Virus record (IMG/VR): IMGVR_UViG_3300045051_000531
Length of the DNA: 64,000 nt
Reading direction: 5' to 3' (one strand)
From: a virus
In this document: piece after piece, positions 19,813-22,401 of the stretch
Numbering within the stretch: position 1 is the first letter of the stretch
Layout of the letters: each line of letters begins with the position of its first letter
The notes under the pieces: model-generated
What the model was told of the DNA's origin: nothing
Seen by the model: only the letters and a program-made list of their open reading frames with translations
Database searches by the model: none
Made by a program: the position numbers and the translations under genes

Positions 19813-19980
19813 TGCCGTGATCTGAGCTCTTTCTCATCTTTCCCTGCAGAGGGGCACCCGGATGGACCGGGTGCTAATGCCCCCGCGGTGGCCCGCGGAC
19901 CGTCCCAAGGCGGCTATTGCAAGTCTGAGATCTGTCATTAGTGTTCCGTCGTTGACAACTAAACGCAATACCATGGTTAT

Positions 19981-20051
19981 GGCGGGGAGCCTCAGAGGTC
20001 GGCTGGTCTCATAAGCCAGCTTAGATGGTTCGACTCCATCCCCCGCAACCA
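19981..20051 (+). tRNA. tRNA-Met/Ile2-like (CAU) with truncated D-arm
   Basis: Loop CTCATAA, T-loop TTCGACT, encoded CCA; D-arm has only a 3-nt loop; G1.A72 mismatch. Confidence 0.65.
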
Positions 20052-20055
20052 CTTA

Positions 20056-20118
20056 GAGGCGCAGCGGCGTCAGGGTTACTTCTTGGAACGAAACACACCC
20101 TGGCTTCATTCTCGCCTC
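20056..20118 (+). ncRNA. Y-RNA-like unit 1 (short)
   Basis: Paired termini GAGGC/GCCTC with shared CAGCGG, GTTACTTC and ATTCTC motifs. Confidence 0.7.
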
Positions 20119-20130
20119 GTTGACAACTTC

Positions 20131-20250
20131 GCCGGCAGCGGTGATCGGGTTACTTCTTTAGTAAAGAAGAGGTCGTTGGTTCGAGTCCAACCAGGGGCAA
20201 CCCTGTAGCTCAGTGGCAGAGCGCTAAACACCTGATCTTTATTCTCCGGC
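20131..20250 (+). ncRNA. Y-RNA-like unit 2 with permuted tRNA module
   Basis: Shared motifs plus anticodon-like arm, T-arm, capped acceptor hairpin and D-arm. Confidence 0.78.
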
Positions 20251-20260
20251 TTTTAGCTTC

Positions 20261-20384
20261 GGCAGTAGCGGTGATTGGGGTTACTTCTCTGATAAAGAAA
20301 AGACCTGGGTTCGACTCCCAGCAGGGCTTCGGCTCTGTAGCTCAACGGTAGAGCGTAAAAACACCTCGATCTATATTCTCTGCC
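20261..20384 (+). ncRNA. Y-RNA-like unit 3 with permuted tRNA module
   Basis: Same architecture as unit 2; loop CTGATAA. Confidence 0.78.
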
Positions 20385-20395
20385 TTTTCAATTTC

Positions 20396-20519
20396 GGGCG
20401 CAGCGGTTCTAGAGTTACTTCTATCCAATCTGCTGGACCGGTTCGACTCCGGAAGGTCATAGACCTTAGTGTAACGGCAGCACAGCGGACCCAAAAGCCT
20501 CTAGGCAGTATTCTCGCCC
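20396..20519 (+). ncRNA. Y-RNA-like unit 4 with permuted tRNA module
   Basis: Shared motifs, T-arm, acceptor hairpin and D-arm; anticodon-like stem poorly paired. Confidence 0.72.
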
Positions 20520-20528
20520 TTGTTCTTC

Positions 20529-20657
20529 GGTGGCAGCGGTGGTCGCGTTACTTCTATACTAAAGAAAAGGTCGGTAGGTTCGACTCCTACCCCAGGGGGC
20601 CAGATCCCCTGGTAGCTCAGCGGTAGAGCGTAAAACACGCGGCTTATATTCTCCACC
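20529..20657 (+). ncRNA. Y-RNA-like unit 5 with permuted tRNA module
   Basis: Same architecture as unit 2; loop ATACTAA. Confidence 0.78.
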
Positions 20658-20666
20658 TTGTCTCTC

Positions 20667-20732
20667 GGTCGCAGCGGCGTCACGGTTACTTCTCTCATAA
20701 AGAAACAACCACCGTGGCGGCTATTCTCGACC
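20667..20732 (+). ncRNA. Y-RNA-like unit 6 (short)
   Basis: Shared motifs; TTCT-CTCATAA-AGAA stem-loop. Confidence 0.7.
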
Positions 20733-20741
20733 TTTCTCCTC

Positions 20742-20803
20742 GCTGGTAGCGGTGCCCCGGTTACTTCAGCCATACGAAACCACCGGTGCGATTATTCTCC
20801 AGC
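20742..20803 (+). ncRNA. Y-RNA-like unit 7 (short)
   Basis: Shared motifs; paired termini GCTG/CAGC. Confidence 0.68.
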
Positions 20804-20813
20804 TTTTCACCCG

Positions 20814-20846
20814 AAGCCCGACGGTAACCCCGTCGGGTTTCTTTTT
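20814..20846 (+). terminator. intrinsic terminator after the ncRNA array
   Basis: GCCCGACGG/CCGTCGGGT stem followed by TTTCTTTTT. Confidence 0.65.
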
Positions 20847-20859
20847 CGAAGGGAGCCCT

Positions 20860-22401
20860 ATGGGCAGGTTCGCAACAAATCCGGCGCTCGCCGCCGGTGC
20901 GGTTCGCGCCGCTGATACCACGAACGCGGCCGGAGGCCGCGCCTACGCCAACGACCCGAAGACGTCGCTGGCCATCCAGCTCGTGTCGAGCTTCGCCTCC
21001 GGTGACCACTACCGGGACGAGGCCGCCCAGCTCAAGGGTCTCCTGGACGCCGTCCAGAAGGTCCCCGATCTCCAGTGGGTCGCCAAGGCGGCGATCTATG
21101 CCCGCGACGTCATGGGCATGAGGACCACGAGCCACTTCGTGACGGCCTGCATCGCGGTCTTGGGCCACGGCCAGCCTTGGCTCAGGAAGTTCTACCAGCG
21201 CGTCGTCCTGCGCCCCGACGATATGTGCGAAGTGTTGGGGGCGTACTGGATGCTGAAGGGCCACACCGGGAAGGGCAAGACGGCGGTGCCGAACGCGCTG
21301 AAGCGCGGCTTCGCGGACCGCTTCGCCCAGCTCACCGGGTACGCCCTGGCGAAGTACCGCGGCGGTGGCCGCGCCGTCAAGCTGATCGACGTGGCCCGCT
21401 TGGTCCACGCCAAGGGCGACCTGGTCACCCAGCTCTGCAAGGGCACCCTGCCCCCGGCGGAGACCTGGGAGGTCGGGATCTCCGGCGCCGGCGATGCCGC
21501 GGCTCGTACCAAGGTCTGGGGCGACCTGCTCCGCACCGGCAAGCTGGGCTACATGGCCACGATGCGGAACCTCCGCAACATCGCCAAGGACGCCCCGGAT
21601 CACCTCGCAGCGGCCCTGGAGGTCATCCGTGACACGGAACGGATGCGCAAGGCCCGGGTGTTCCCGTTCCGCCTGTTCACGGCCTACCGGCTCTTCGAGA
21701 CCACTGAAGGTGCCGAAGGTCTGACCAGGGCCCAGATCCGCGAGATCCACGAGGCCCTCTCGGTGGCCCTGGACGCCTCGACAACCACGGTTCCTAAGTT
21801 CGAGGGCGACTCCTTGGTCGTCATCGACACCTCGGGGTCCATGGAGTCCACGGTGTCCCAGAAGTCGTCGGTCCGCTGCGTCGAGGCAGCGGCGGTCATG
21901 GGGGCCACGGTGCGCCGCCAGAACCCGAAGTGCGACATGGCGATCTTCGCGGACACCTCGAAGTACATCACCACGGGCCCCGCGGCCCGCCCGGTGGTGG
22001 ACGTCGTCGCAGGGGTCCTCGGCAAGATCGGTGACGTCGGGCACGGCACCAACATGAGCTCGATCTTCGGGCTCATCGATCTGGCGCAGTTCAGGCGCAT
22101 CTTCGTGATGTCCGACATGCAGAGCTGGTACGGGGACGAGACTGCGGCCACGAACTGGCTGAACAGGAACCCCAAGAACCACCTCTACGTGTGGAACCTG
22201 CATGGCGACGGGTCCACCCTGGCGGCCCCGGAGAACAAGCGGGTCATCCAGCTCGGCGGGTTCAGCGACAGGATCTGGGATACGATCCCGATGCTGGAGC
22301 AGGGCCCCGCAGGTCTGGTCCAGGCGATCGACGCCTGGGACCCCTGGGCGAAGAAGGCGGCCGATGCCGCCGAGGATCCCGGGGCGGACCCGGTTTCCTG
22401 A
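20860..22401 (+). CDS. rsr: Ro60/Rsr-like TROVE-domain RNA-binding protein with C-terminal VWA domain
   Basis: TTNAAGGRAY, ETWEV..S, LGYMATMRNLRNI, PFRLFTAY, and MIDAS-like IDTSGSM ... VMSDMQ. Confidence 0.92.
   Translation: MGRFATNPALAAGAVRAADTTNAAGGRAYANDPKTSLAIQLVSSFASGDHYRDEAAQLKGLLDAVQKVPDLQWVAKAAIYARDVMGMRTTSHFVTACIAVLGHGQPWLRKFYQRVVLRPDDMCEVLGAYWMLKGHTGKGKTAVPNALKRGFADRFAQLTGYALAKYRGGGRAVKLIDVARLVHAKGDLVTQLCKGTLPPAETWEVGISGAGDAAARTKVWGDLLRTGKLGYMATMRNLRNIAKDAPDHLAAALEVIRDTERMRKARVFPFRLFTAYRLFETTEGAEGLTRAQIREIHEALSVALDASTTTVPKFEGDSLVVIDTSGSMESTVSQKSSVRCVEAAAVMGATVRRQNPKCDMAIFADTSKYITTGPAARPVVDVVAGVLGKIGDVGHGTNMSSIFGLIDLAQFRRIFVMSDMQSWYGDETAATNWLNRNPKNHLYVWNLHGDGSTLAAPENKRVIQLGGFSDRIWDTIPMLEQGPAGLVQAIDAWDPWAKKAADAAEDPGADPVS

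What the first reader, a model, noticed from the sequence alone, without database searches (positions are those of the whole stretch)
20080..20778. Each Y-like unit displays a different anticodon-like loop; four units are circularly permuted tRNAs
Seen: after GTTAC each unit has a TTC(T)...(A)GAA stem with a variable loop. U1 TTGGAAC (GGA), U2 TTAGTAA (AGT), U3 CTGATAA (GAT), U5 ATACTAA (ACT) and U6 CTCATAA (CAT) are 7-nt loops with U33 and a purine at 37. U4 ATCCAAT (CCA) has a poor stem and U7 has an 8-nt loop. Units 2-5 continue with T-arm, capped acceptor stem and D-arm, i.e. a tRNA opened at the D/anticodon junction. Known: in YrlA the Ro-binding stem replaces the anticodon arm. Inference: non-chargeable anticodon decoys on a Ro60 scaffold that titrate or redirect host anticodon nucleases or modifying enzymes; the loop is the variable specificity element.
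Basis: partly seen in the sequence, partly recalled or inferred. Interest (0 to 1): 0.82.

Follow-up and report, generated by a model that had tools for sequence, protein, structure and literature searches.

The report
Anticodon-arm mimic in phage Y RNAs
A 191-kb phage carries seven Ro60-partner Y RNAs in a row, and the small hairpin in four of them copies a tRNA anticodon arm, including the letters that mark tRNAs for the t6A modification; hundreds of related Y RNAs share this overlooked feature, which gives a testable lead to what these RNAs bind.

Summary
The sequence facts are right. Seven YrlA/YrlB-type Y RNA units (20055-20807, + strand) lie between a tRNA-Met gene and a phage Ro60/Rsr gene. 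U2, U3 and U5 carry T arm, closed acceptor stem and D arm; U4 is a decayed copy; U1, U6 and U7 are short.

The hairpin after GUUAC is the 'V stem-loop' described for YrlA in 2014. My comparison shows it has anticodon-arm geometry: 5 bp, 7-nt loop, then a 5-nt variable loop and the T arm.

In 100 unique viral units whose loop was left free by the search:
- pair 31:39 is kept in all 100, with four pair types;
- U33 98, purine-37 98, A38 93;
- 36-38 is UAA in 71 (28% in 940 real tRNAs from the same loci);
- 36-37 is GG in 19;
- positions 34 and 35 are nearly free.

UAA is the strict t6A determinant and GG the TrmD determinant. U2, U3, U5 and U6 fit the UAA class. U1 and U7 belong to other conserved short-unit loop classes.

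So the loop is a selected anticodon-loop mimic, but only two or three of its positions vary. The decoy function is untested, and the feature also occurs on bacterial chromosomes. The permuted-tRNA likeness and the nuclease-inhibitor idea are already in print.

The parts
19978..20051 (+). tRNA-Met (CAU) gene directly upstream of the array; its anticodon loop is identical to the U6 loop
   Evidence: ARAGORN; Rfam tRNA model 26.8 bits, below the cut-off of 29; sequence read
20055..20121 (+). U1, short Y RNA unit (YrlB-like). Closing stem, AGCGG motif, middle stem, GUUAC, then a 3-bp hairpin 20080-20092 with a 7-nt loop of the conserved UUGG class.
   Evidence: MFE fold; homologous short units with UUGG loops
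20129..20254 (+). U2, full YrlA-type unit. Anticodon-arm mimic 20153-20169 (5 bp, loop N-U-AGU-A-A); variable loop and T arm 20170-20191; closed acceptor stem 20192-20205; UA and D arm 20206-20222.
   Evidence: Rfam YrlA 42.7 bits; the Rfam tRNA model aligns the hairpin as an anticodon arm at 27.6 bits; fold; coordinates
20259..20388 (+). U3, full YrlA-type unit. Hairpin 20285-20299 (4 bp, loop C-U-GAU-A-A); V loop and T arm 20300-20321; acceptor stem with UUCG cap 20322-20337; D arm 20338-20354.
   Evidence: Rfam YrlA 36.1 bits
20394..20523 (+). U4, decayed YrlA-type unit. No convincing hairpin after GUUAC (20419-20433); 4-bp T arm 20438-20452; acceptor-like hairpin 20453-20467; weak D arm 20469-20483.
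   Evidence: No Rfam YrlA hit at E<=10; fold; coordinates
20527..20661 (+). U5, full YrlA-type unit. Hairpin 20552-20566 (4 bp, loop A-U-ACU-A-A); V loop and T arm 20567-20591; 7-bp acceptor stem 20592-20612 whose loop begins G-CCA; D arm 20613-20629.
   Evidence: Rfam YrlA 26.1 bits
20665..20736 (+). U6, short unit that nevertheless carries the UAA-type hairpin 20690-20704 (4 bp, loop C-U-CAU-A-A). It is the only such case among 72 short units surveyed.
20740..20807 (+). U7, short unit. 3-bp hairpin 20765-20778 with an 8-nt loop; a near-identical loop occurs in a short unit of viral contig L197.
20813..20841 (+). Intrinsic-terminator-like hairpin with a T run, closing the Y RNA array before rsr
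   Evidence: Terminator scan: 12 pairs, 8 G-C
20860..22401 (+). rsr, phage Ro60 orthologue (513 aa) with TROVE and Ro60 vWA domains
   Evidence: Pfam PF05731 E 5.9e-25 and PF25045 E 6e-7; 229 TROVE relatives, the closest at 49-51% identity

Best explanation
This is an array of seven Y RNAs, the RNA partners of the phage's own Ro60/Rsr protein. Each unit docks on Rsr through its terminal stem (AGCGG motif on the 5' side, UAUUCUC on the 3' side).

In U2, U3 and U5 the apical module is a whole tRNA body. It has an anticodon-arm mimic, a 5-nt variable loop, a T arm, an acceptor stem closed by a loop, and a D arm. The Ro-binding stem is tethered at the 26/27 junction by single-stranded linkers.

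The hairpin is the published 'V stem-loop' of YrlA, re-read here as an anticodon stem-loop under purifying selection. U33, A37 and A38 are kept. Positions 36-37 are almost always UA (with A38, the strict t6A identity element) or GG (the TrmD m1G37 identity element). Positions 34 and 35 drift.

Inferred mechanism: the loop, stacked under the D stem, is read by host proteins that recognise the 'D stem plus anticodon loop' branch of tRNA. The most parsimonious candidates are the position-37 modification enzymes (TsaBD with TsaC, and TrmD). This would complete the tRNA mimicry that lets the Rsr-Y RNA particle engage tRNA-handling factors.

Shown: the anatomy, the covariation and the conservation pattern. 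Inferred: stacking on the D stem, modification, and any decoy or recruiting role.
For: Anatomy in the window.

The hairpin is real:
- Pair 31:39 is kept in 100 of 100 unique viral units in which it was left free (CG 40, AU 35, UA 15, GC 10).
- On the Rsr-anchored set the same pair is AU 25, CG 13, GC 4, UA 1.
- RNAalifold predicts 5 bp, 7-nt loop, 5-nt linker and T arm.

tRNA geometry: of 59 unique Y modules, 30 have at least 4 bp closing a 7-nt loop, against 5.8 in shuffles. Other loop sizes are at background, except 9 nt (18 units), which I read as the same hairpin minus its innermost pair.

Loop rules:
- U33 98, purine-37 98, A38 93, UAA 71, GG 19 of 100. No G36-A37 or U36-G37 at all.
- The Rsr-anchored set agrees: U33 28, R37 29 and UAA 21 of 30.
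- Control: 940 real tRNAs from the same loci have UAA in 27.7%, and A-A, C-A or G-A at 36-37 in 48% against 6% in the Y loops. Fisher p = 3e-17 and 7e-19.
- Entropy is 1.80 and 1.77 bits at positions 34 and 35, against 0.16, 1.13, 0.84 and 0.47 at 33, 36, 37 and 38.

Literature:
- 36-UAA-38 is the strict t6A determinant. [quoted passage not shown]
- TrmD needs G36-G37 plus the D stem and anticodon arm (PMC5372744).

Other support:
- ARAGORN calls several of these Y units as tRNAs, five of them among the T-to-D modules; 67 of its tRNA calls carry a Y-type motif. GenBank annotates one in Gordonia phage VanLee as tRNA-Arg(tct).
- Units without the hairpin carry a tetraloop-capped helix after the D arm. 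A helix at that place therefore seems needed, but a 7-nt loop is not.
Against: - No modification, binding or expression data exist for any hairpin-bearing YrlA. The two YrlAs studied at the bench lack an anticodon-like hairpin: S. Typhimurium has no hairpin there, and the M. smegmatis sequence, inferred from a published probe, shows no 7-nt-loop hairpin.
- t6A enzymes are reported to need full-length tRNA. Here the 25-26-27 strand that normally bridges the D and anticodon stems is interrupted.
- A32 is 20% in the Y loops against 2% in tRNAs, whereas the TsaBD structure uses U32 in a base triple.
- The hairpin is not universal. About half of the T-to-D modules in the Rsr-anchored set lack it or carry a GGGA-type loop. 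RNAalifold on that mixed set predicts only the T stem.
- The closest Rsr relative with DNA in hand (L214, 49% identity) has other loops.
- The units are related, so counts are not independent events. No phylogeny-corrected test was run.
- The phage encodes no TsaD and no RtcB.
Confidence: 0.6

Rival explanations
1. Evolutionary relic with a structural role only. Y RNAs arose from a tRNA dimer (Sim and Wolin model, quoted in 10.1101/312249). The hairpin would be the leftover anticodon arm of the first tRNA, probably a tRNA-Asn-like one. It would be kept only as a helix that props up the tRNA-like core, and its loop letters would have no reader.
For: - The commonest loop is the tRNA-Asn loop: GUU triplet in 24 of 100, and the exact tRNA-Asn-type loop in 19.
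- ARAGORN reads the 5' two-thirds of several units as tRNA-Asn.
- Encoded N-CCA follows a 7-nt first strand of the acceptor stem in 12 of 149 units, and in U5, as expected for a former tRNA 3' end.
- Hairpin-less units replace it with a tetraloop helix elsewhere.
Against: - A relic without a reader should decay evenly. Instead 34 and 35 are near saturation while 33 and 36-38 are held.
- The double change UA to GG is common (19), while the single-step intermediates GA and UG are absent.
- A structural prop does not need a 7-nt loop.
Confidence: 0.2
2. Each unit is a decoy for a particular host anticodon nuclease or modifying enzyme. The anticodon-like triplet sets the specificity, and the phage array broadens the coverage.
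For: - Arrays with two or more such hairpins always show different triplets. The window has AGU, GAU, ACU and CAU; L294, L312, L155 and L395 each have two.
- Outside the window the UAA-class triplets are mostly real ANN-decoding anticodons, with A34 in only 4 of 71.
- Hughes et al. suggested that YrlA may competitively inhibit an anticodon nuclease (PMC7790460).
Against: - 13 of 16 possible 34-35 pairs occur, and two of the window's four triplets have A34, which bacterial tRNAs of these families do not use. That reads as drift rather than mimicry of given tRNAs.
- Old paralogues would differ at free positions anyway.
- The same hairpins occur singly on bacterial chromosomes.
- S. Typhimurium YrlA was not cut by the damage-induced nuclease, but it also lacks the hairpin.
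- No nuclease was tested here.
Confidence: 0.13
3. Permuted or split tRNA genes. Some units (U5 above all) would be cut in the acceptor loop by RNase P and 3' trimmed. That would give a two-piece tRNA held together by the Ro stem, which could be charged and used.
For: - U5 has a 7-bp acceptor stem followed by G-CCA and a 3-nt spacer.
- M. smegmatis YrlA, with a 7-bp stem, is cut by RNase P and receives CCA in vivo (PMC4201824).
- N-CCA is enriched (12 of 149, p = 5e-6).
Against: - U2 and U3 have 5-6 bp stems capped by tetraloops and no CCA.
- The anticodons ACU and AGU are not used by bacterial tRNAs.
- The D/anticodon strand is interrupted.
- No aminoacylation identity was examined.
Confidence: 0.04
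4. The published reading: the hairpin is a tRNA variable arm (V), and the Ro-binding stem stands in for the anticodon stem (Chen et al. 2014).
For: - It lies between the conserved YUAY and the T arm, as described.
- In the crystal structure of the hairpin-less S. Typhimurium YrlA, the stem formed by the 5' and 3' strands occupies the anticodon-stem position.
Against: - A 5-nt linker of the canonical class I form (N-GGUC) follows the hairpin in most units.
- The loop obeys anticodon-loop rules rather than being free.
- A long, A/U-rich single-stranded linker separates the D arm from the Ro-side stem in hairpin-bearing units.
Confidence: 0.03

Closest known systems
YrlA / YrlB bacterial Y RNAs with Rsr (Rfam RF02553; Chen et al. 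2014, PMC4201824; Wang et al. 2018, 10.1101/312249)
   Same: - Encoded just upstream of rsr and on the same strand.
- Terminal stem with a Ro60-binding motif.
- T arm, then closed acceptor stem, then D arm, with tRNA tertiary-contact nucleotides.
- The conserved YUAY before a 'V' stem-loop.
- Several Y RNAs per locus.
- Already known from phages.
   Different: - Seven units in one array.
- All units score below the Rfam threshold.
- The V stem-loop here, and in a large clade of relatives, has anticodon-arm geometry and conserved 33 and 36-38 letters, which the papers I could read do not describe.
- Neither YrlA studied at the bench has an anticodon-like hairpin: S. Typhimurium has none at all, and M. 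smegmatis (read from a probe sequence only) none with a 7-nt loop.
Anticodon stem-loops of ANN-decoding tRNAs, the substrates of t6A synthase TsaBD/TsaC (PMC13276492)
   Same: 5-bp stem, 7-nt loop, U33, U36-A37-A38, free 34 and 35, and a D stem in the same body.
   Different: - Not part of a decoding tRNA.
- The strand joining the D and anticodon stems is interrupted by the Ro stem.
- A32 is frequent.
- Modification was not shown.
Circularly permuted tRNA genes of red algae and archaea (Soma et al. 2007, as discussed in 10.1101/312249)
   Same: The 3' half precedes the 5' half, and the acceptor stem is initially closed by a loop. Wang et al. already drew this comparison for YrlA.
   Different: - The break point lies between the D arm and the anticodon arm, and the ends pair into a Ro60-binding stem. 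I did not look for a bulge-helix-bulge splice site.
- No evidence of maturation into a tRNA.
tRNA-shaped Y RNAs with the Ro module in the anticodon arm
   Same: tRNA body plus Ro60-binding module next to phage rsr genes. I saw units with GUUACUUCG followed by D, anticodon and T arms in normal order.
   Different: The wiring is the opposite of the window's units. Those notes are unchecked leads.

Membership tests
YrlA-type Y RNA (RF02553) | Encoded within about 4 kb of a Ro60/Rsr gene and on the same strand | tested here: met
   The array ends at 20807 and rsr starts at 20860, both on the + strand. TROVE and Ro60 vWA domains are present.
YrlA-type Y RNA (RF02553) | 5' and 3' ends pair into a stem carrying the GNCGAAN0-1G Ro60-binding motif near the 5' end | tested here: inconclusive
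   Closing and middle stems are predicted in all seven units. The motif is present as the variant AGCGG(U/C)G. Relatives show AGCGA or AGUGA. Binding was not tested.
YrlA-type Y RNA (RF02553) | T arm, closed acceptor-like stem and D arm, in that order, with conserved loop nucleotides | tested here: met
   Met by U2, U3 and U5. U4 is degenerate. U1, U6 and U7 lack them (YrlB-like).
YrlA-type Y RNA (RF02553) | Score at or above the Rfam gathering threshold (69 bits) | tested here: not met
   42.7, 36.1 and 26.1 bits. The 14-nt hairpin is treated as an insertion by the model.
Functional tRNA | Open 7-bp acceptor stem with a free 3' end; detected by tRNA finders | tested here: not met
   ARAGORN finds no tRNA in 20055-20807. 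The Rfam tRNA model gives 27.6 and 21.9 bits, below 29. The acceptor stems are closed by loops.
Functional tRNA | 5-bp anticodon stem, 7-nt loop with U33 and purine-37, then a 4-5 nt variable loop and the T arm | tested here: met
   U2 meets it exactly. U3, U5 and U6 have 4-bp stems. The family-wide frame is shown.
t6A substrate anticodon branch | 36-UAA-38 in a 7-nt loop | tested here: met
   U2, U3, U5 and U6; 71 of 100 relatives.
t6A substrate anticodon branch | A D stem stacked on the anticodon stem in a full tRNA body | not testable with these tools
   A D arm is present in U2, U3 and U5 but absent in U6. Stacking cannot be judged from sequence, because the 26/27 strand is interrupted.
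t6A substrate anticodon branch | A37 actually carries t6A | not testable with these tools
   Needs RNA from an infected or expressing cell.
Circularly permuted tRNA gene | Processing signals that restore a continuous tRNA (bulge-helix-bulge at the joined ends, ligation) | not tested
   The ends form a long Ro-binding stem with internal loops. No splice motif was searched for. No RtcB in the phage.

The most novel reading that the evidence does not exclude
In a large clade of bacterial and phage YrlA RNAs, the so-called V stem-loop is a working anticodon stem-loop. On this reading it receives t6A37 or m1G37 from the host's essential position-37 enzymes. It would then serve as the handle by which the Ro60-Y RNA particle senses, sequesters or competes with proteins that read tRNA anticodon loops, anticodon nucleases included. 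A phage array would present four such handles at once. Some units (U5-like, with encoded CCA) might even mature into split, CCA-ended tRNA-like molecules.
Probability: 0.22. Interest if true: 0.85.

Novelty: new variant of a known kind. Interest (0 to 1): 0.62.

Why it matters
What the tRNA-like half of bacterial Y RNAs binds has been open since 2014. Work so far has pointed to the tRNA 'elbow'.

This analysis shows that most relatives of this phage's Y RNAs also keep an anticodon loop with the exact letters that two essential tRNA-modifying enzymes require. That names concrete candidate partners (TsaBD/TsaC, TrmD, and nucleases that read such loops). It also names simple experiments: map position 37, mutate U36 or A38, and pull down partners.

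It further explains why tRNA finders and GenBank records mislabel some of these RNAs as tRNAs, and it adds detail to the tRNA-dimer model of Y RNA origin.

Tried and rejected
- Megablast of the locus against GenBank phages found no match.
- The search for related loci with the single Rsr protein in viral contigs found nothing.
- A 15-base motif scan of viral contigs gave about 120 chance hits, one per contig; it was useless.
- A metagenome scan with the alignment of the five closest Rsr proteins gave one short contig with 99 nt upstream.
The contigs of three of the four closest Rsr relatives (P0002-P0004, about 50% identity) could therefore not be read. The fourth (P0005) was recovered as L214.
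- MFE folding of the isolated 20-nt segments was misleading, because variable-loop letters pair with the loop. I replaced it with frame counts and covariation.
- RNAalifold on the mixed Rsr-anchored alignment predicted only the T stem.
- Pseudoknot between UUA of GUUAC and U36-A37-A38: rejected. GG-class loops keep GUUAC unchanged, and the loop lengths are sterically poor (my own reasoning).
- Covariation between loop class and the linker after the D arm: none seen.
- A crude either/or test of a 5' hairpin against a hairpin after the D arm was inconclusive, with many weak A/U stems.
- Searches for RtcB and TsaD in the phage genome found neither.
- The supplement of Chen 2014 and the 2020 Annual Review (PMC10870794) are not held. 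I cannot exclude that the loop pattern is mentioned there.
Full report
**What the window is.** The window lies in a complete 191.5-kb IMG/VR phage record with direct terminal repeats.

**What is at the site.** Between a tRNA-Met gene (19978-20051) and a terminator-like hairpin (20813-20841) lie seven tandem units (20055-20807). After the terminator comes a 513-aa gene with TROVE and Ro60 vWA domains (20860-22401).

Each unit has, in order:
- a closing stem;
- an AGCGG(U/C)G motif;
- a middle stem ending in GUUAC;
- an apical module;
- the returning strand of the middle stem;
- a UAUUCUC motif and the returning strand of the closing stem.

GTTACTTC occurs seven times in 64 kb, all of them here.

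- U2, U3 and U5 contain a T arm, an acceptor-like stem closed by a loop, and a D arm. They are weak matches to Rfam YrlA (42.7, 36.1 and 26.1 bits; gathering score 69).
- U4 is a decayed copy.
- U1, U6 and U7 are short units of the YrlB kind.

So this is a Y RNA array in front of a phage rsr gene. That arrangement is known in principle from Chen et al. 2014, who reported YrlA-like RNAs near Ro60 in 254 bacteria and 22 phages (PMC4201824).

**The hairpin.** The Rfam tRNA model itself aligns U2's hairpin as an anticodon arm, followed by a 5-nt variable loop and the T arm (27.6 bits).

[quoted passage not shown] The hairpin here is that element. The crystal structure is of S. Typhimurium YrlA, which has no such hairpin. 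Its 5' and 3' strands form the anticodon-stem equivalent.

**Relatives.** The closest Rsr proteins are about 50% identical.

I collected 80 viral loci and 80 genome loci whose Rsr is 31-49% identical to the window's. A T-arm-then-D-arm search found 59 unique Y modules in them, after ARAGORN tRNA calls were removed and five that turned out to be Y units were restored. Nearly all are preceded by GUUACUUCG.

- The exact tRNA frame (5-bp stem, 7-nt loop, 5-nt linker, T stem) is fully paired in 25 of 71 unique upstream segments, which still include true tRNAs, against 0.95 per frame after shuffling.
- 30 of the 59 Y modules have at least four contiguous pairs closing a 7-nt loop, against 5.8 expected. 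Other loop sizes sit at background, except 9 nt (18 units), which I read as the same hairpin minus its innermost pair.
- The pair next to the loop covaries: AU 25, CG 13, GC 4, UA 1.
- The window uses CUUCU/AGAAG where most relatives use UUCGN/NCGAG. That is a compensatory G-C to U-A change at the fourth pair.

**An independent sample.** I scanned IMG/VR with a fixed-length pattern that specified GUUACUUCG, two stem letters, GGUC and the start of the T arm. It left positions 31, 39 and the seven loop letters free.

- Positions 31 and 39 pair in all 100 (CG 40, AU 35, UA 15, GC 10; chance would be 37.5%).
- Loop composition: U33 98, purine-37 98, A38 93, U36 73, UAA at 36-38 in 71.
- Positions 36-37 are UA in 73, GG in 19, CA in 4 and AA in 2, and never GA or UG.
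- Entropy is 1.80 and 1.77 bits at positions 34 and 35. It is 0.16, 1.13, 0.84 and 0.47 at 33, 36, 37 and 38.
- Among 46 distinct loops, 23 are UAA and 13 are GG. 13 of the 16 possible 34-35 pairs occur in the UAA class.
- RNAalifold on 48 of these units plus U2 and U5 predicts the anticodon-like arm, the 5-nt linker and the T arm.

**Control.** 940 unique real tRNAs predicted in the same loci have:
- U33 95%, purine-37 97%, A38 72%, UAA 27.7%;
- at 36-37: UA 34%, AA 20%, CA 16%, GA 13%, GG 11%.

The Y loops are thus as tRNA-like as tRNAs at positions 33 and 37. They are strongly skewed to the UAA class (Fisher p = 3e-17) and depleted of AA, CA and GA (p = 7e-19). A32 is commoner than in tRNAs (20% against 2%).

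**What the letters mean.**
- 36-UAA-38 is the strict and universal determinant of t6A37. [quoted passage not shown]
- TrmD needs G36-G37 and the D stem plus anticodon arm (PMC5372744).

The free positions are the ones those enzymes ignore. This is a sequence-level match. No modification has been measured.

**The window's units in this light.**
- U2, U3, U5 and U6 have loops of the form N-U-N-N-U-A-A, with triplets AGU, GAU, ACU and CAU. They belong to the UAA class.
- With four such hairpins, the window has the largest array among about 280 loci. Other arrays have at most two, always with different triplets.
- U6 is unusual. It is the only one of 72 surveyed short units with this loop type.
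- U1's loop belongs to a conserved class of short units with a UUGG core, closed by CUUC/GAA and followed by A-rich ACA.
- U7's 8-nt loop recurs almost unchanged in a short unit of viral contig L197. That contig also has a short unit with a UAA-type loop.
- U4 has no hairpin.

**Topology.**
- In hairpin-bearing units, a long A/U-rich single strand separates the D arm from the returning strand of the middle stem.
- Three or four unpaired letters (UUAC) precede the hairpin.
- The linker to the T arm is the canonical N-GGUC in most units.

It fits a class II variable arm less well.

Several units without the hairpin carry a G+C-rich, tetraloop-capped helix just after the D arm. A short helix at the anticodon position therefore seems to be wanted, but the 7-nt loop is not needed for that. 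A crude test of mutual exclusivity was inconclusive. Which helix stacks on the D stem cannot be settled from sequence.

**Origin.**
- ARAGORN calls several of these Y units as tRNAs, several of them as tRNA-Asn; 67 of its tRNA calls carry a Y-type motif.
- GenBank annotates the type-A unit next to the Ro-like gene of Gordonia phage VanLee as tRNA-Arg(tct).
- U5 has a 7-bp acceptor stem followed by G-CCA. 12 of 149 other units have N-CCA at that place (p = 5e-6).

All of this agrees with the tRNA-dimer origin model quoted by Wang et al.. The likeness to circularly permuted tRNAs is discussed in the same paper, so that part of the finding is not new.

**Function.** Nothing here tests function.
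- The hairpin also occurs in Y RNAs on large bacterial contigs and chromosomes (Holophaga, Holophagaceae, Sericytochromatia, Lewinellaceae). A purely phage counter-defence role is therefore unlikely to be its primary meaning.
- The phage has no RtcB and no TsaD.
- Hughes et al. speculated that YrlA could competitively inhibit an anticodon nuclease.

My reading is that the loop is kept because host proteins that read the D stem plus anticodon loop act on it, or are bound by it. Position-37 modification is the most economical guess (0.6 for the selected-mimic reading as a whole, and less for modification itself). The relic-only reading (0.2) does not explain the uneven conservation or the UA/GG coupling.

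**Limits.**
- Counts are over related sequences and are not phylogenetically corrected.
- The second sample is restricted to units with the common stem letters.
- About half of the units in the unbiased sample lack the anticodon-like hairpin, and RNAalifold on that mixed set does not predict it.
- The nearest relative I could read (L214) has other loops.
- I could not read the supplement of Chen 2014 or the 2020 review. The loop pattern may have been noted there.
- Earlier notes of this scan describe related tRNA-shaped Y RNAs on other DNA. I used them only as leads.

Noticed in passing
window 19845-19914 (+): Match to the type-P5 twister ribozyme model (31.8 bits, gathering score 37.6, E 1.7e-4), with the conserved core letters aligned. 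It lies just upstream of tRNA-Met and the Y array and could process the 5' end of the transcript.
   Followed up: no
window 20592-20612 (U5 acceptor-like stem): A 7-bp stem whose loop begins G-CCA, that is, a discriminator plus an encoded CCA, then a 3-nt spacer. N-CCA at this place is enriched in other Y units (12 of 149, binomial p = 5e-6). M. smegmatis YrlA, with a 7-bp stem, is cut by RNase P and CCA-tailed.
   Followed up: partly
L417:2617-2688 (Gordonia phage VanLee, NC_073474.1): The feature annotated as tRNA-Arg(tct), right upstream of the Ro-like gene, is a Y RNA unit. It has UUAC, an anticodon-like hairpin (UCU triplet, UAA class), a T arm and then a D arm. In my loci, 67 ARAGORN tRNA calls carry a Y-type motif and look like similar miscalls.
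   Followed up: partly
window 19950 and 20118 (+): The 10-mer CGTTGACAAC, which contains TTGACA, occurs only twice in the 64-kb window: before tRNA-Met and in the U1-U2 spacer. These are possibly two promoters. The sigma-70 scan found no full promoter.
   Followed up: no
L265:2520, L241:1538, L276:2484, L244:107 and others (Saprospiraceae MAG loci): Y units in which GUUACUUCG is followed directly by a D arm, an anticodon arm and a T arm in normal tRNA order. This is the opposite wiring to YrlA, and the same kind as the 'tRNA-shaped Y RNAs' noted earlier in this scan.
   Followed up: no
L186:2704, L267:2804, L273:2834, L280:2814, L286:2828: YrlA-like units without the 5' hairpin carry a G+C-rich hairpin capped by a tetraloop (often GCAA) immediately after the D arm.
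   Followed up: partly
L128-L130 (low-GC viral contigs): Three Y units with the same AGCGG, GUUAC and AUUCUC frame, embedded in a tRNA gene cluster. No rsr gene was seen in the parts of the contigs I read. Two of them have 7-nt UAA-type loops.
   Followed up: no
L401 and L405: Two units 93% identical overall that differ in the loop by the double change U36-A37 to G36-G37. This is a direct example of the coupled switch.
   Followed up: partly
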